In this document: in pieces, positions 23,565 to 28,307 of the stretch
Numbering within the stretch: the stretch's first letter is position 1
How the letters are laid out: each line of letters starts with the position of its first letter
IMG/VR virus record: IMGVR_UViG_2541047900_000007
DNA from: a virus
Lineage: Duplodnaviria > Heunggongvirae > Uroviricota > Caudoviricetes
Direction: 5' to 3' (one strand)
DNA: 33,326 bases
Position numbers and translations under genes: made by a program
Notes under the pieces: model-generated
Told to the model about the DNA's origin: nothing
The model's input: the letters and a program-made list of their open reading frames with translations, nothing else
The model's database searches: none

Positions 23565-24551
23565 CTATTTAAGAATAAAACGGTATTTACTGTCAGGAGT
23601 GCTTTGCTGATCAAGTAGCAGTGAACGACATGGAGCAGTCAAAACCCGAGCATAACTACCATCAGGGCTTATGTTAATGTAACAAACCTTGCCCTTAACA
23701 CTATAATTTTCGGGGACGGATGCCTTTGCTGATACAGTAAATTTAAGGGTATGCCAGCCCGTTTTTTGCTTGTAGCTTGAAACCGAATGGAAATCATCTG
23801 AGTACTTATTTAACCCTGGAAACATGCTGCGCAGTGCGGGGATGGAATCTTCTATTATTTTATCGTTGGTTTTAATGTTAAAAACGCTGGTTTCAGTAGA
23901 AGCTACTGCTTTGGCATTTCCCCATTTACCAGCGAACACAATCATTCCCACGAAAAATATTGCTACAAGAACTAACACTCCCCCCAACACTACTACATGA
24001 GGCTTCCGGCTTCTGGTTGGTACAGTTGCGACTGATTTTGCACCGCTTTCCGATGGAGGTGATAGAGTTTTACTCTCATCACGAATATTCAGCAGATCAT
24101 CAAAATAACCAAACACAGCCTGCAACTGCTCTTTGTCTAGGCCTTTAAGATGGGTTGTACCGAAATGCTTCAGACAGTATCTGTCACGGTCAAGACGATA
24201 CCCAGGGTCAGTAAGCGCCATTATTTTGCTGACCAGAAGATTACAGTCCTTCATATTCTGGATCTGTTGTGCATATCTCTGAAGGATCTCAACCGCACCA
24301 TGATAATCAGCCGCAGTCATTTCATTAACTGTTTTGGTATTAAGTTTCGTGTGGATCGTCATCCATAGCTCGCGCTTACTTTCCCCCAGATCAACCAATT
24401 CATCCATCAATCTGTGTAAATCGCGTTTTTGCAGCAACGAAATTGGTTGCTGGGCCGAAGGAAGTATGTCAGCAGAATAGTTATGAATGGTAACATCACC
24501 GCTGACAACGTTACCCACATCCCCGTTAACTGTTTGCTTCTCTTTACTCAT
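23565..24551 (-). CDS. bitopic membrane protein (cytoplasmic N-domain, one transmembrane helix, C-terminal domain with two Cys), function unknown
   Basis: 328-aa ORF; ATGA overlap with the repressor gene; central helix VVVLGGVLVLVAIFFVGMIVFAG. Confidence 0.55.
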   Translation of the reverse strand: MSKEKQTVNGDVGNVVSGDVTIHNYSADILPSAQQPISLLQKRDLHRLMDELVDLGESKRELWMTIHTKLNTKTVNEMTAADYHGAVEILQRYAQQIQNMKDCNLLVSKIMALTDPGYRLDRDRYCLKHFGTTHLKGLDKEQLQAVFGYFDDLLNIRDESKTLSPPSESGAKSVATVPTRSRKPHVVVLGGVLVLVAIFFVGMIVFAGKWGNAKAVASTETSVFNIKTNDKIIEDSIPALRSMFPGLNKYSDDFHSVSSYKQKTGWHTLKFTVSAKASVPENYSVKGKVCYINISPDGSYARVLTAPCRSLLLDQQSTPDSKYRFILK

Positions 24552-25009
24552 CTTCTCTTGGTATTTTTGTTCATTATTCCACCTGTTCCTATGGTTACGT
24601 TACCTTTGATAACATTCCCCAGAACATCTCCATGAATAACCTGTTCCGCCCGTTCTCTGGAGGAGCCAGTAGTCAAGGCCGACAAAACTGAACCTTTGAC
24701 CTGTAATGGTGCCTGCCGGTAGTGCTGCAGTAACTCCATTTCATCACGTGATAAAGTTATACCTGATGACTCCCCGGTAAGAATGAACTGTACATTGGCC
24801 CCAATTCTTGCAAAGGCTGCAAGTAACTCACCTCCGGGAACAGCAACCCCTCGTTCATATTTCCCCCACATTTCTCTTGAAACGCCACAAAGGGCTGCTA
24901 CTTCAGCCTGCTTGAGTGATAACCGCGAACGCTCAGCTTTGAACCGCGACGCGCAAAGAGAATCAAAATTCACATAAACCTCATTGACAATGAGAACAAT
25001 AGTTCTCAT
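24548..25009 (-). CDS. XRE-family helix-turn-helix repressor (candidate immunity repressor); true start probably internal (GTG near 24973)
   Basis: HTH pattern LKQAEVAALCGVSREMWGKYERG; divergent from Ner-like gene; ORF-track ATG 25009 sits inside the predicted early promoter -10. Confidence 0.65.
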   Translation of the reverse strand: MRTIVLIVNEVYVNFDSLCASRFKAERSRLSLKQAEVAALCGVSREMWGKYERGVAVPGGELLAAFARIGANVQFILTGESSGITLSRDEMELLQHYRQAPLQVKGSVLSALTTGSSRERAEQVIHGDVLGNVIKGNVTIGTGGIMNKNTKRR

Positions 25010-25012
25010 AAT
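24984..25012 (+). promoter_or_regulatory. candidate early promoter TTGACA-N17-CATAAT with palindromic operator ATGAGAAC-aata-GTTCTCAT in the spacer
   Basis: Read directly: -35 at 24984-24989, inverted repeat 24990-25009, -10 at 25007-25012; about 47 nt upstream of the Ner-like ATG with AAGGAG ribosome-binding site. Confidence 0.5.
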
Positions 25013-25059
25013 CTATCACATATAAAACAAACATCATTGCATCAACAAAGGAGACAACA

Positions 25060-25248
25060 ATGACTTCCGAACAAGTTAAAAATCTCTTCCGTCAGCGTGG
25101 TATCACGTTTACCCGCTGGGCCGAAGAACACGGCTACAGCCGCAATGAGGTCTATCGTGTTCTCAATGGACAGACCAAAGCTCGTTACGGCAAAGCCCAT
25201 GAAATTGCCGTAAAACTGGGATTAAAACCCACGTCAAATGCGGCATAA
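25060..25248 (+). CDS. ner: Ner-like DNA-binding protein (Cro analogue)
   Basis: 62-aa ORF, pattern FTRWAEEHGYSRNEVYRVLNG...IAVKLGLKP; first gene of rightward early operon. Confidence 0.6.
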   Translation: MTSEQVKNLFRQRGITFTRWAEEHGYSRNEVYRVLNGQTKARYGKAHEIAVKLGLKPTSNAA

Positions 25249-25300
25249 ATTTTCCACATATGCAACAGGTTATCACATATTGCAAAAATGGAAATGTGAC

Positions 25301-25609
25301 ATGAGTAAAGTAAATATTTCCAGTTCTGGGACCCGCATCCTACGTGTACTCAAAGCTCTACGCGGTCATGCTCTGAACGGTGTTTCTAACGGTGAACTGG
25401 CATCAGCCCTGGGGGAGTCCCCGGCGAATATCAATCGAGCACTTAATACCCTTATTGAAGAGGGACTGGCCATGAAATTAGAGAACGGACGTTTCGCACC
25501 GGGAATCCAGTTACTACAGATCGCCATGGCTCACAGTCACGAGATGGCGCGTGCACAGGATCGTATTAACGAAATCAACCAACGAGTTATTTCAGGTAGT
25601 CGTTTGTAA
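25301..25609 (+). CDS. winged-helix transcriptional regulator-like protein
   Basis: Start set to ATG 25301 (MSKVNISSSGTRILRVLKAL...); HTH-like segment GVSNGELASALGESPANINRALNTLIEEGL. Confidence 0.45.
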   Translation: MSKVNISSSGTRILRVLKALRGHALNGVSNGELASALGESPANINRALNTLIEEGLAMKLENGRFAPGIQLLQIAMAHSHEMARAQDRINEINQRVISGSRL

Positions 25610-25619
25610 GGAGTAATCA

Positions 25620-26534
25620 ATGGGACGCACCAAATCACCCGTTAACACTGAACTGAATGTTGAGGTTCCGCTGTCAGATAACATCAATGTCAATTTGAAC
25701 GCTATGACACAGCATCGCATGGAAATTATGCAGCAGTTTGGTGATGGACTGCCTTATGAACGTGATCGCATTGTTCACGAAGCACGTTTTTATATGGCGC
25801 AGAGTGCTGAATCTATGCTGGAAGCGGGTAAGCGGCTGATCATCTTAAAAGAAAATGAGCCACACGGTGATTTTACAAACATTTTAGAAAATGAACTCGG
25901 ACTTGCACCACAAGTTGCTCGCCGCATGATGCAAGCCAGTATGAAGTTTTTGGGAGAAGGTGATGAGCCAACAAAACGCTCAACGTTGAGCGTTTTGGGG
26001 AAAGCCAAACTGTACGACCTGATGGTTCTGGATAATGAAGAACTTGATGAATTGGCCGACGGCGGCACAGTTGCCGGCCTGACGCTTGACGACGTTGATC
26101 GCATGTCAGTACGTGAATTGCGTCAGGCCCTGCGCGAAGCGCGCGAAACCAACGCAGCACAACAGCGCGTACTCGCTGACAAAAATGAAAAAATAGACTC
26201 ACTCTCCACCAGACTGGAGAAGAAATCCCGTATTCAGCCGCCTGAGCCTGATGAAGAGGTTAAGAAGCTGCGGGCGGAAGTGACAGCATTAGCGGTTGAG
26301 GCGGAATCTGCTATCGCCGTTCGACTGTCCAGCGCTTTTGAGACGCTGTGCGCATATTGTGCTGAAAACATGATTGATACCCCCAGAGACTTCATGGCAG
26401 GCCTGGTCTGTCAACTGGAAAGCACAGCGCGTAGCCTGCGCTCCACATTTGACCTGCCGGATGAGCCAACAGGCAATGCCGCGCCTTCATGGCTGACTGA
26501 GCCGACGCCACAGATTAACGGGCTGGAGGCATAA
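25620..26534 (+). CDS. conserved hypothetical early protein (acidic, coiled-coil)
   Basis: 304-aa ORF directly upstream of the transposase gene. Confidence 0.55.
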   Translation: MGRTKSPVNTELNVEVPLSDNINVNLNAMTQHRMEIMQQFGDGLPYERDRIVHEARFYMAQSAESMLEAGKRLIILKENEPHGDFTNILENELGLAPQVARRMMQASMKFLGEGDEPTKRSTLSVLGKAKLYDLMVLDNEELDELADGGTVAGLTLDDVDRMSVRELRQALREARETNAAQQRVLADKNEKIDSLSTRLEKKSRIQPPEPDEEVKKLRAEVTALAVEAESAIAVRLSSAFETLCAYCAENMIDTPRDFMAGLVCQLESTARSLRSTFDLPDEPTGNAAPSWLTEPTPQINGLEA

Positions 26535-26537
26535 CCA

Positions 26538-28307
26538 ATGAATGCTGCCCTGACTGAACGACTGGTTTATGTCGCCCGCGCGGCACGTGACGCGGGGCAT
26601 GGTAAACGCGGTGCAATATACGACGCTGCCTGTGCTGAACTTGGCATGTCCCGCGCCACTCTGCTGCGCAGGCTGAAGGAGGTCTCTGTGACTGATAAAC
26701 GCAAAAAACGCGCTGATGCCGGACGCAGCGCCCTGACCCGCGACGAAGCCGCGCTGATATCTGCCACACTGCGTGAGGCCACCCGCAAGAACGGTAAGCG
26801 CCTCTATTCCATCGCAGATGCAGTGGAAACCCTGCGGGCTAACGGCTTTATCACCGCAGGCAGAACAGATGAAACCACCGGTGAGTTTTTCCCGTTGTCT
26901 GAAGATGCCATCAGCCGTGCTCTGCGTAACTATGGCCTGCACCCGGAACAACTGGATGCTCCTGCACCGCATACCGAAGTGGCCAGTCTGCACCCCAATC
27001 ATGTCTGGCAGATTGACGCCTCACTCTGCACGCTTTACTACCTGAGCAATGGACATAAAGGGCTGCAGGTGATGGACAGCGCGAAGTTCTACAAGAACAA
27101 GCCCGCTAACCTTGCCCGTATCGCCAGTGACCGCGTGTGGAGTTACGAGATTACCGACCATGCCAGCGGCTGGATTTACGTTGAGTATGTGACGGGCGCG
27201 GAATCAGGTGAGAACCTGTGTTCTGTGCTTATCAACGCCATGCAGGAGCGTGGCGGCGCAGACGTGCTGCACGGCGTGCCAAAAATACTCTATCTCGACC
27301 CCGGCTCGGCAAACACCGCGGGTATGACGAAAAACATGTGCCGCTCACTGGGCATCGACCTGATAGCGCACAAGCCGCATAACGCCCGCGCCACCGGACA
27401 GGTGGAAAAGGCGCGAGACATTATCGAACGCAAGCTGGAGCCGGGTCTGAAGTTCCGGCCGGTTCACAGTCTGGAAGAACTCAACGCGCTGGCCGCGAAA
27501 TGGCGCAGCCACTTTAACGCCACGGCTGTTCACAGCCGCCACGGTAAAACCCGCACGGATATCTGGCTGAAGATTACTGCTGAGCAGCTGAAAAAAGCGC
27601 CTTCCGTTGAGGTATGTCATGAACTGGCTGTGGCGGCACCAGAACTCCGCAAAGTCACGCCAAAACTTCGTGTCTCGTTCCGGGGCACTGAATTTGACGT
27701 ATCAACGGTACCGGGCGTACTGGTTGGTGAAAAACTGATGATTACCCGTAACCCATGGCGCAGCGATGTGGCACAGGTGGTTCTGACCGGTGAGGACGGC
27801 CACGAGACGTTCTTCCTGGTCGAAGAGGTCAGAAAGAACGAGTTTGGCTTTGCTGAAGGCGCGGCGGTATTTGGCGAAAGTTACAAAGCCCTGCCGGAAA
27901 CCCCGGCACAGATGGCGGCAAAAGAAACCGAAGCGCTGGTTACCGGTACAGACAACGCCGCAGATGCAGCCGCCGCACGCAAGGCGAAGGCGCTGCCGTT
28001 CGGCGGGCGGCTTGACCCGTATAAACATATCGACGACACCACACTTCCGGCCTATATGCCGAAGCGTGGTCAGGCCTCTGACGTACGCGGGCCGCGCACT
28101 GAACAACGTCCCATGACTCATGTGGAGGCCGCGAAAGCCCTGCGCGATAAGTTCAGCGCCGACGGCCTTACCTGGACGCCGGAACATTACCGCCAGTTAA
28201 CGGCACAGTACCCGGACGGCGTACCGGAAGCCGCACTGGATGAAGTCATGGCCACGCTGACCACACCGGCCAGCAGCAGTGTTATCAGCATTGTTAACGG
28301 CAACTGA
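26538..28307 (+). CDS. DDE transposase, MuA-like (transposable-phage transposase A)
   Basis: 589-aa ORF with N-terminal HTH and integrase-core-like region (HVWQIDASL...LYLDPGSANT); followed by an AAA+ B-like gene; GGAGG ribosome-binding site. Confidence 0.8.
   Translation: MNAALTERLVYVARAARDAGHGKRGAIYDAACAELGMSRATLLRRLKEVSVTDKRKKRADAGRSALTRDEAALISATLREATRKNGKRLYSIADAVETLRANGFITAGRTDETTGEFFPLSEDAISRALRNYGLHPEQLDAPAPHTEVASLHPNHVWQIDASLCTLYYLSNGHKGLQVMDSAKFYKNKPANLARIASDRVWSYEITDHASGWIYVEYVTGAESGENLCSVLINAMQERGGADVLHGVPKILYLDPGSANTAGMTKNMCRSLGIDLIAHKPHNARATGQVEKARDIIERKLEPGLKFRPVHSLEELNALAAKWRSHFNATAVHSRHGKTRTDIWLKITAEQLKKAPSVEVCHELAVAAPELRKVTPKLRVSFRGTEFDVSTVPGVLVGEKLMITRNPWRSDVAQVVLTGEDGHETFFLVEEVRKNEFGFAEGAAVFGESYKALPETPAQMAAKETEALVTGTDNAADAAAARKAKALPFGGRLDPYKHIDDTTLPAYMPKRGQASDVRGPRTEQRPMTHVEAAKALRDKFSADGLTWTPEHYRQLTAQYPDGVPEAALDEVMATLTTPASSSVISIVNGN

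What the first reader, a model, noticed from the sequence alone, without database searches (positions are those of the whole stretch)
24984..25023. Near-consensus early promoter with a palindromic operator, lying inside the annotated repressor start
TTGACA (24984-24989), 17 nt, CATAAT (25007-25012) faces the Ner-like gene. A perfect 8-bp inverted repeat ATGAGAAC-aata-GTTCTCAT (24990-25009) fills the spacer. The longest repressor ORF would start at ATG 25009 inside the -10, leaving only 50 bp for two divergent promoters, so the repressor more likely starts at an internal GTG near 24973. The palindrome is a strong operator candidate for the bistable switch.
Basis: seen in the sequence. Interest (0 to 1): 0.55.

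Follow-up and report, generated by a model that had tools for sequence, protein, structure and literature searches.

The report
Prophage early promoter with repressor operator
This is the main "lytic genes on" promoter of a Mu-like E. coli prophage, with the repressor's binding palindrome between its two promoter boxes; it is an ordinary phage switch, but the database start of the repressor gene is 12 codons too long.

Summary
TTGACA (24984-89), a 17-nt spacer and CATAAT (25007-12) form the only 11/12 or better sigma-70 match in the 33-kb window. The perfect repeat ATGAGAAC-aata-GTTCTCAT (24990-25009) fills the spacer.

The window is a BcepMu/B3-like transposable prophage of E. coli.

1. **Promoter.** The -35/17/-10 frame upstream of the first early gene is conserved everywhere.
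2. **Operator.** The spacer nearly always holds a palindrome. Its arms (core GAGAAC-N4-GTTCTC here) follow the repressor's recognition helix, not the Ner-like protein. The 4-bp centre varies freely. Homology with heteroimmune relatives starts at 25007/8, the first bases of the -10.
3. **Start codon.** The repressor starts at GTG 24973, with GAGG 5 nt upstream. Homologues start there with ATG, GTG or TTG, and eight relatives have a stop codon inside the supposed extension.

Only one operator was found. The repressor's own promoter is unresolved. This is a well-supported but ordinary member of a known kind of switch. Nothing here was tested by experiment.

The parts
24984..24989 (+). Pe -35 hexamer TTGACA
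   Evidence: The TTG and its distance to the -10 are conserved in all five E. coli immunity types and in most of the 80 related loci.
24990..25009 (.). Operator palindrome ATGAGAAC-aata-GTTCTCAT. The conserved core is GAGAAC (24992-97), N4 (24998-25001), GTTCTC (25002-07). It is a single site.
   Evidence: unique in the window; the arms are conserved from E. coli to Pseudomonas wherever the helix is GVSRE[M/I]W..YERG, the centre is variable and A/T-rich, and L019 has a symmetric double change (GCGAAC/GTTCGC).
25007..25012 (+). Pe -10 hexamer CATAAT. Its CAT is the annotated ATG of the repressor read on the other strand. Homology with heteroimmune prophages begins at 25007/25008.
25018..25020 (+). 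Predicted Pe transcription start (A25018 or A25020, 6-8 nt after the -10), inside a conserved CAC(A/G) motif.
   Evidence: Inferred from spacing rules. The CAC motif at this distance recurs in relatives. Not measured.
24971..24973 (-). Proposed true start codon (GTG) of the repressor.
   Evidence: homologues start here as M, and the codon is GTG, ATG or TTG across loci. RefSeq uses this start in strain 510016 (WP_032143028.1, 141 aa).
24979..24982 (-). Shine-Dalgarno-like GAGG, 5 nt upstream of GTG 24973.
   Evidence: GAGG, GGGG, GGTG or GGAG sits at the same place in relatives. There is no purine-rich run upstream of ATG 25009.
24548..24973 (-). Repressor gene as re-delimited (141 aa). It has an XRE-type 5-helix HTH (residues 3-66), two further helices (76-102) and a low-confidence tail.
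   Evidence: HTH_31/HTH_3; P22 C2, E 9e-5; model; best PDB match is P22 c2 bound to operator, rmsd 1.5 A over 64 residues.
24974..25009 (-). 12-codon 'extension' of the annotated ORF (MRTIVLIVNEVY). It is not coding: it is the promoter and operator read on the opposite strand.
   Evidence: in L010-L017 the equivalent frame reads (I)M*TLVLIVN, with TGA directly after the ATG or TTG. L018 has a stop directly before its ATG.
25060..25248 (+). First early gene (Ner-like small HTH protein, 62 aa), followed by an IclR-type wHTH gene (25301-25609), a DUF3102 gene (25620-26534) and a transposase gene (26538-28307).
   Evidence: phrog_925. SD AAGGAG at 25048-25053.
25010..25018 (-). Candidate extended -10 (TGaTAGATT) for a repressor promoter overlapping Pe. 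This is a hypothesis only.
   Evidence: TGnTAGATT is conserved in all five E. coli immunity types, with only n varying. No canonical minus-strand promoter was found. It would be analogous to pC2 of B3/Fc02 (PMC9936078).

Best explanation
The segment is the early (lytic) promoter Pe of a BcepMu/B3-like transposable prophage of E. coli, together with the single operator of its XRE-type (P22 C2/434-like) immunity repressor.

RNA polymerase with sigma-70 would use TTGACA (24984-89) and CATAAT (25007-12). Transcription would start near 25018-25020 and read through the Ner-like gene into the transposase operon.

One repressor dimer would bind the symmetric site GAGAAC-N4-GTTCTC (24992-25007). That site fills the 17-bp spacer and overlaps the first base of the -10, so a bound repressor would exclude the polymerase and keep the prophage silent.

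The repressor itself is 141 aa and starts at GTG 24973, behind a GAGG ribosome-binding site. The annotated 153-aa form arises because the -10 hexamer CATAAT reads ATG on the other strand, and this particular operator happens to contain no stop codon in that frame.

The operator plus the N-terminal DNA-binding domain form the exchangeable immunity-specificity module. The -10, the leader and ner are shared between heteroimmune phages.

Shown here: the sequence features, their conservation, the co-variation with the repressor, and the closed reading frame in relatives. Inferred: binding, dimer stoichiometry, the transcription start and repression.
For: **Promoter**
- It is the only sigma-70 match of 11/12 or better in the window.
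- The same frame is found in 5 heteroimmune E. coli prophages, where the alignment is invariant from the -10 rightwards and conserves the TTG of the -35.
- It is also found in 70 of 81 loci and in BcepMu and Ps59.
- In the B3-like phage Fc02, transcripts starting at ner burst out within 10 min of inactivating a temperature-sensitive repressor (PMC9936078).

**Operator**
- Of 60 distinct promoter regions, 70% have at least 6 of 8 symmetric pairs in the spacer, against 8.5% after shuffling the spacer. For at least 7 pairs the figures are 45% against 1.3%.
- The arms track the recognition helix:
  - GVSRE[M/I]W..YERG pairs with GAGAAC/GTTCTC, from E. coli to Pseudomonas and Azonexus.
  - GVSRETW pairs with GAGATC/GATCTC.
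  - G[IV][KQ]RETWSRYE pairs with GTGATC/GATCAC.
  - GVKKLAQLNYEKG pairs with GGTATTC/GAATACC.
  - GVRKQAQLNYEKG pairs with GGTACTC/GAGTACC.
- The centre 4 bp vary and are A/T-rich. L019 carries a symmetric double change.
- Ner is 100% identical in L003 and L004, which have different palindromes. The GAGAAC class also occurs upstream of a non-Ner early gene that looks ribbon-helix-helix-like on sequence inspection only.
- Homology with about 450 heteroimmune E. coli genomes begins at 25007/8.
- The repressor's N-terminal domain matches P22 c2 bound to its operator.

**Start codon**
- (alignment of homologues, GTG/ATG/TTG at the site, SD-like run, stops in the extension).
- (RefSeq itself uses this start in a strain where 25009 is T>C).
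Against: - There is no experimental datum for this phage: no transcription start site, no binding assay, no N-terminal sequence.
- The operator and the DNA-binding domain lie within about 100 bp of each other. Part of their co-variation could therefore reflect linkage within one recombination module rather than recognition. The arguments that go beyond linkage are the maintained symmetry, the conserved arms with a free centre, and the fixed register relative to the -35 and -10.
- Only one site was found, so no cooperative multi-operator arrangement is visible. This leaves open how a sharp switch would be achieved.
- The repressor's own promoter was not found as a canonical sigma-70 site.
- The 12-codon extension is open in this phage and in a few relatives (P0005, P0016), so a minor longer isoform cannot be formally excluded.
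Confidence: 0.82

Rival explanations
1. The annotated ATG 25009 is the real start. The 153-aa protein would be made, for example, from a transcript that starts further upstream (antisense through ner), and the promoter-like boxes would be incidental coding sequence.
For: The ORF is open from 25009 in this phage and in P0005 and P0016. RefSeq annotates it so in more than 100 genomes. In the B3-like phage Fc02 the repressor is transcribed in the lysogen from a distal promoter running antisense through ner (PMC9936078), so such an mRNA would contain 25009.
Against: Stop codons interrupt the extension in L010-L017, and a stop directly precedes the start in L018. Most homologues start at the V13 position, with ATG, GTG or TTG. 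There is no SD before 25009, whereas GAGG sits 5 nt before 24973. The 'residues' MRT..LIVN are conserved only because they spell the operator arm and the -35. A natural T25009C variant exists.
Confidence: 0.05
2. The palindrome is the site of the Ner-like (Cro-like) protein or of another shared regulator, not of the repressor. Alternatively both proteins share it, as in lambda.
For: In lambdoid phages CI and Cro share their operators. The palindrome lies in the promoter of the ner gene, so autoregulation would be plausible.
Against: L003 and L004 encode identical Ner proteins but carry unrelated palindromes. Window Ner is 87% identical to theirs, yet the palindrome differs again. The GAGAAC class is also found in front of a non-Ner early gene in L019. 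Sequences conserved together with ner lie to the right of the -10 (TATCACATAT, CATCATTGCATCA) and are better candidates for a Ner site.
Confidence: 0.06
3. The inverted repeat acts as an RNA hairpin in the 5' leader of the repressor mRNA (affecting stability or translation) rather than as a protein-binding DNA site.
For: On the minus strand it folds into an 8-bp stem (MFE of the 61-nt stretch -14.1 kcal/mol, z = -2.2). The symmetric double change in L019 would also preserve a stem.
Against: The arm sequence, not just the pairing, is conserved across genera for a given recognition helix. Asymmetric arms are tolerated (GAGAAC/GTTCAC in L010-17). The register is fixed relative to the -35 and -10, not relative to the repressor start codon, whose distance from the -35 varies between about 8 and 17 nt. 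Whether the region is transcribed on the minus strand at all is unknown.
Confidence: 0.04
4. Chance: an A/T-rich intergenic stretch that happens to look like a promoter with a palindrome.
For: An 8-bp inverted repeat with a 4-nt gap is expected about 0.5 times per window by chance, and a second one exists at 25975.
Against: Promoter matches of 11/12 or better are expected only 0.2 times per window, and this one sits exactly at the divergent junction. The architecture recurs in dozens of independent loci.
Confidence: 0.01

Closest known systems
P22 C2 and 434 repressor N-terminal domains with their symmetric operators
   Same: Five-helix XRE-type HTH. P22 C2 is the best sequence match in the PDB (E 9e-5) and the best fold match (3jxb, rmsd 1.5 A over 64 residues, 30% identity). 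The operator consists of two conserved arms around a variable, A/T-rich 4-bp centre that is presumably not contacted, and it overlaps the lytic promoter.
   Different: There is a single operator rather than a tripartite OR/OL with cooperative binding. There is no S24 peptidase or RecA-cleavable C-terminal domain; the model shows two extra helices and a low-confidence tail instead. The host element is a transposable, not a lambdoid, phage.
pE/pC2 regulatory region of B3-like Pseudomonas transposable phages (B3, Fc02, Ps59)
   Same: The repressor is divergent from ner, followed by early genes and the transposase. The intergenic region is short, with an early promoter in front of ner that is derepressed when the repressor is inactivated (PMC9936078). 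The repressor is 36% identical to the Ps59 repressor, and ner DNA is about 70% identical to B3. Ps59 shows the same TTGACA, palindrome and -10 layout.
   Different: The operator sequence differs (GGTGC..GCACC in Ps59). Fc02 has a distal pC1 promoter and extra genes (gene 10, olg1/olg2) between ner and the IclR-type gene, which this phage lacks. The papers I could read do not describe an operator for the B3 group.
BcepMu (Bcepmuvirus) gp17/gp16 region
   Same: Overall genome type: the relative PhiKM is classified as Bcepmuvirus. gp17, annotated as a cro/cI-type regulator, is 38% identical. The layout is the same: TTGACA-ggtaatcaaacgcatacc-ATACTT with a GGTA..TACC palindrome. A membrane-protein gene follows the repressor.
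   Different: The operator class and recognition helix differ, and the host is Burkholderia.
Phage Mu Pe / O1-O3 / Ner switch
   Same: The logic is the same: the repressor gene is divergent from Pe, ner is the first early gene, and the transposase genes lie downstream.
   Different: The Mu c repressor has a MuA-like winged-helix domain and binds three extended operators with IHF. Here the repressor is an XRE HTH with one short palindrome. Neither the Mu repressor nor the Mu Ner Pfam families are hit.

Membership tests
Sigma-70 promoter | -35 TTGACA-like box, 16-18 bp spacer, -10 TATAAT-like box with A2 and T6 | tested here: met
   TTGACA/17/CATAAT, 11 of 12. Unique at this stringency in the window.
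Sigma-70 promoter | A transcript 5' end 6-8 nt downstream of the -10 | not testable with these tools
   No transcriptome data were available. A literature search for TSS data on EC958 found nothing.
CI/C2-type (XRE HTH) phage immunity repressor with symmetric operator | HTH_3/HTH_31 DNA-binding domain with the 434/P22 C2 fold | tested here: met
   Pfam HTH_31 at 30.5 bits (cut-off 27) and HTH_3. P22 C2 is the top hit by sequence and by fold.
CI/C2-type (XRE HTH) phage immunity repressor with symmetric operator | A two-fold symmetric operator overlapping the lytic promoter, specific to the repressor type | tested here: met
   The palindrome sits in the spacer and co-varies with the recognition helix, not with Ner. 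Binding itself was not tested.
Lambda-type tripartite switch | Several adjacent operators with cooperative binding, shared by repressor and Cro | tested here: not met
   There is one site only, allowing up to 3 mismatches. The near-matches at 27210 and inside ner are also present in heteroimmune relatives, so they are explained by coding. Ner does not co-vary with the palindrome.
LexA/CI S24 self-cleaving repressors | C-terminal peptidase S24 domain (PF00717) | tested here: not met
   No PF00717 hit. The model shows two helices and a low-confidence tail. Only a few distant homologues (P0068, P0069, P0078) carry PF00717.
Mu c repressor / Mu operators | MuA-like winged-helix N-terminal domain | tested here: not met
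   The Pfam scan gives only HTH_31 and HTH_3.
Mu Ner / Nlp family (for the downstream gene called 'Ner-like') | A match to a Ner/Nlp family profile | tested here: not met
   The Pfam scan of the 62-aa protein gives only a sub-threshold HTH_31 hit (24.2 bits against a cut-off of 27). It belongs to phrog_925, 'HTH DNA binding protein'. 'Ner-like' rests on gene position and on annotations in B3-like phages.
BcepMu/B3-like transposable phage immunity region | Repressor divergent from ner, then regulator, DUF3102 and DDE transposase genes; repressor homologous to BcepMu gp17 and B3-group repressors | tested here: met

The most novel reading that the evidence does not exclude
The whole BcepMu/B3-like group may run its lysis-lysogeny decision through one repressor dimer on one operator. 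That operator is embedded in the spacer of a fixed promoter scaffold (TTGACA-17-CATAAT), which may also be bidirectional, with the repressor's own extended -10 (TGnTAGATT) overlapping the Pe -10. One bound dimer would then shut both promoters.

Immunity would be swapped by recombination exactly at the -10 and between the two domains of the repressor. That would make these phages a natural library of at least 10 orthogonal repressor-operator pairs on one scaffold.
Probability: 0.3. Interest if true: 0.45.

Novelty: new member of a known kind. Interest (0 to 1): 0.3.

Why it matters
**Annotation.** The repressor of a prophage present in about 125 complete E. coli genomes is annotated 12 codons too long (WP_001259268.1). 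A heteroimmune relative is annotated right across the ner start (WP_224154089.1). The cause is general: a CATAAT -10 reads as ATG on the other strand, and the operator contains no stop codon.

**Biology.** The result gives a concrete, testable operator (GAGAAC-N4-GTTCTC) and promoter for a widespread but unstudied family of transposable prophages in pathogenic E. coli (ST131, CE10, IAI39).

**Specificity.** The comparison yields a table of recognition-helix and half-site pairs. For example, Ser to Lys/Gln goes with GAG to GTG, and Met/Ile to Thr goes with AAC to ATC. This could guide specificity studies or the design of synthetic parts.

It does not change how phage switches are understood.

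Tried and rejected
1. **Second operator inside the transposase gene.** GAGAACCTGTGTTCTG (27210-25) has one mismatch, but it is identical in the heteroimmune EC958 phage. It is coding sequence or chance.

2. **Imperfect copy inside ner.** ATGAGGTC-tatcgt-GTTCTCAA (25145-66) is also present in heteroimmune L003 and L004 and absent from L010 and L011, which share the operator. It is explained by the codons for NEVYRVLN.

3. **Canonical leftward promoter for the repressor.** No minus-strand hit at 9/12 or better lies anywhere to the right of the repressor gene up to 28400. Manual inspection of TTGATG, TTGTTG and TTATAT combinations gave nothing convincing. Only TGnTAGATT is conserved.

4. **-10-like hexamers at the operator centre on the minus strand.** TATTGT here and TATAAT in L018 and L032 are not conserved across the class.

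5. **RNA hairpin reading**. Weaker than the operator reading; see the rival explanations.

6. **Literature.** I found no description of an operator for BcepMu/B3-like repressors and no TSS data for these E. coli prophages in the searchable library. Braid 2004, Summer 2004 and Salmon 2000 were not readable here.

7. **Natural variant T25009C**. A single case, not informative on its own.

Full report
**What the window is.** The 33-kb window is a transposable prophage of E. coli. The 1.3 kb around the finding is 100% identical to the chromosomes of CE10, IAI39 and many other strains, at different chromosomal positions. A relative, phage PhiKM, is classified as Bcepmuvirus. Around the finding, a 153-aa XRE-type HTH ORF lies on the minus strand (24548-25009). 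It is divergent from a rightward operon:
- a 62-aa Ner-like HTH protein (25060-25248);
- an IclR-type winged-helix protein (25301-25609);
- a DUF3102 protein (25620-26534);
- a DDE transposase (26538-28307).

The HTH protein is 36-38% identical to the cro/cI-type regulator gp17 of BcepMu and to the repressor of the B3-like phage Ps59.

**The observation.**
- TTGACA/17/CATAAT is the only promoter-like hit in 24400-25700.
- It is the only match of 11/12 or better on either strand of the whole window, where shuffles give 0.2 on average.
- The 20-bp palindrome is unique in the window even with 3 mismatches.
- A perfect 8-bp repeat with a 4-nt gap is not rare in itself: 2 are observed against 0.49 expected. 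The case rests on placement and conservation.
- RefSeq does annotate the repressor from ATG 25009.

**Heteroimmune E. coli relatives.** A search with the repressor plus the intergenic region finds about 125 genomes with this immunity type. About 450 further genomes match only from window position 25007/25008 rightwards, at about 93% identity. The homology break is therefore at the first bases of the -10.

Four such relatives were read and aligned. From the -10 through the leader to the ner ATG they are nearly invariant, and the TTG of a -35 box is kept at the same distance. The spacer is entirely different in each, and it is clearly palindromic in three of the four:
- EC958: GCTCATAATTATGAGC;
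- OkiPb01694: GTtGAAAATTTTCtAC;
- AR0349: ATaCACAttTGTGcAT;
- CD306: only GGTG...CACC, which is weak.

Their repressors are unrelated HTH proteins that start 8-17 nt to the left of the -35. In CD306, RefSeq has extended the repressor ORF across the ner start, which is the same kind of artefact as in the window.

**Relatives of the same repressor in other species.** An alignment of homologues was used to fetch 80 loci from species-representative genomes.

In 70 of 81 regions, a promoter scoring at least 9/12 lies just upstream of the repressor on the opposite strand. After removing duplicates, 60 distinct regions remain. Of these, 70% have at least 6 of 8 symmetric pairs in the spacer, against 8.5% when the spacer is shuffled and scored in the same way. 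For at least 7 pairs the figures are 45% against 1.3%.

The arms follow the recognition helix:

| Recognition helix | Operator arms | Loci |
|---|---|---|
| GVSRE[M/I]W[G/S][K/R]YERG | GAGAAC-N4-GTTCTC | window; Pectobacterium, Brenneria, Lonsdalea, Serratia L9, Izhakiella, several Pseudomonas, Azonexus, Methylocaldum |
| GVSRETWGKYERG | GAGATC/GATCTC | L012 |
| G[IV][KQ]RETWSRYE[SA]G | GTGATC/GATCAC | L009, L021, L022, L027, L030 |
| GVKKLAQLNYEKG | GGTATTC/GAATACC | L051, L060-62 |
| GVRKQAQLNYEKG | GGTACTC/GAGTACC | L055, L059 |

Within the GAGAAC class:
- The 4-bp centre is free but A/T-rich (aata, taaa, tata, tttg, taga, caaa, ttaa).
- L019 carries a symmetric double change (GCGAAC/GTTCGC).

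BcepMu and Ps59 show the same layout with their own palindromes.

**Whose site is it?** The Ner-like protein is 100% identical in EC958 and CD306, which have unrelated spacers, and it is 87% identical to the window's. The GAGAAC class also precedes a different first early gene in L019, one that looks ribbon-helix-helix-like on sequence inspection only. The palindrome therefore goes with the repressor, not with Ner.

One caveat applies. The operator and the DNA-binding domain are within about 100 bp of each other, so linkage alone would produce some co-variation. Three observations go beyond linkage:
- the maintained two-fold symmetry;
- conserved arms with a free centre across genera whose flanks have diverged;
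- the fixed register relative to the -35 and -10.

The repressor's N-terminal domain is closest, by sequence and by predicted fold, to P22 C2 bound to its operator. P22 C2 likewise recognises two arms around a central 4 bp that it does not contact (from established knowledge of the P22 system).

**The start codon.**
- Most homologues begin MNFDSLCA..., exactly at V13 of the annotated protein.
- At the DNA level, the codon at that position is GTG in most loci, ATG in L018, L019, L023 and L028, and TTG in L029. It is always preceded by a GAGG, GGGG, GGTG or GGAG run; in the window this is GAGG at 24982-24979, 5 nt upstream.
- In L010-L017, the frame upstream reads (I)M*TLVLIVN: a TGA follows the ATG or TTG that lies in the -10. 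In L018, a stop directly precedes the ATG.
- The apparently conserved 'residues' MRT...LIVN of the extension are the operator arm and the -35 read backwards.
- In strain 510016, a T25009C change removes the ATG, and RefSeq then starts the protein at the GTG (141 aa).
- No SD-like sequence precedes 25009.

The repressor is therefore 24548-24973, and the intergenic region is 86 bp rather than 50 bp.

**How it probably works.** Pe would start transcription at about 25018-25020. This is inferred: a CAC(A/G) motif recurs at that distance in relatives. It would drive ner and the transposition genes. A repressor dimer on 24992-25007 would occupy the whole spacer and the edge of the -10, and so exclude RNA polymerase. 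This step is also inferred.

The nearest experimental support comes from the B3-like phage Fc02. There, strand-specific RNA-seq shows transcripts starting at ner within 10 min of inactivating a temperature-sensitive repressor (PMC9936078).

Only one operator exists. Near-matches in the transposase gene and inside ner are also present in heteroimmune phages, so they are explained by coding.

**What remains open.** The repressor's own promoter was not found as a canonical site. The best candidate is an extended -10, TGaTAGATT (25018 to 25010, minus strand). It overlaps the Pe -10 and is conserved in all five E. coli immunity types, with only the n position varying. It would start transcription inside the operator, so the repressor would also repress itself. 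In Fc02, a proximal pC2 promoter overlapping pE and a distal pC1 promoter running antisense through ner are both reported (PMC9936078), and either could apply here. How the repressor is inactivated is also unknown. It has no S24 peptidase domain, and its C-terminal 35 residues are modelled with low confidence.

**Comparison and verdict.** This is a regular member of a known kind: an XRE/C2-like immunity repressor whose symmetric operator overlaps the lytic promoter, in a B3/BcepMu-like transposable phage. It differs from lambda, P22 and 434 in having a single operator and no self-cleaving domain. It differs from Mu in repressor fold and operator type. I found no published description of the operator for this group in the searchable library, so the specific site and the helix-to-half-site table are new details rather than a new principle. 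The practical result is a corrected start codon. Interest is modest.

Noticed in passing
window 25013-25023 and 25270-25280: The 11-mer (C/T)TATCACATAT occurs twice in the same orientation. One copy lies directly after the Pe -10, covering the predicted start. The other lies in the 52-bp gap between ner and the IclR-type gene. The second copy is invariant in five heteroimmune E. coli relatives while its flanks vary. By chance, two copies are not rare (24 of 100 shuffles). It may be the site of a shared regulator such as Ner, or an RNA element.
   Followed up: partly
window 25032-25044: The leader element CATCATTGCATCA (CATCWTTGCATCA) upstream of the ner SD is exact in the E. coli, Serratia and Pseudomonas loci that carry a Ner-type first gene, although the surrounding leader has diverged. 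Its function is unknown. Possibilities include a Ner site, the -35 of a leftward promoter (TTGATG on the minus strand) or an mRNA element.
   Followed up: partly
window 24548-24973 (repressor), compared with P0003-P0042: The repressor is a domain mosaic. Identity in the N-terminal HTH (annotated residues 13-82) and in the C-terminal part (83-153) is uncoupled. Examples are P0003 at 53% and 93%, P0021 at 41% and 71%, and P0008 at 79% and 39%. DNA-binding specificity and the C-terminal function appear to be exchanged independently.
   Followed up: partly
window 24548-24551, 24590-24655 and 24480-24551: The repressor stop overlaps the start of the next gene (ATGA). That gene (23565-24551, 328 aa) belongs to phrog_10002 and sits in the same position as BcepMu gp18, a membrane protein. 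The repressor's C-terminal tail RAEQVIHGDVLGNVIKGNVTI resembles the N-terminus of this next protein, KEKQTVNGDVGNVVSGDVTI (52% over 21 aa). This may be a shared interaction or degradation motif, or a remnant of duplication.
   Followed up: no
L004 1115-1573 (E. coli CD306, WP_224154089.1): The RefSeq repressor CDS of a heteroimmune relative runs through its own promoter and 20 nt into the ner gene. The likely true start is the ATG at about L004 1453. This is the same over-extension artefact as in the window.
   Followed up: partly
L012, L019, L051, L055, L059-L062: In some relatives the first early gene after the same promoter-operator frame is not Ner-like. It is a protein of about 65 aa with an LPLRLSPEER..IEAMA motif, which looks ribbon-helix-helix-like on sequence inspection only. 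It comes with its own conserved leader, CACGGAnACTTAGCAGATCACAATATACCACT. The lytic regulator module is therefore also exchangeable.
   Followed up: no
window 25975-25994: This is the only other perfect 8-bp inverted repeat with a 4-nt gap in the window: AACGCTCA-acgt-TGAGCGTT, inside the DUF3102 gene. It was not examined further.
   Followed up: no
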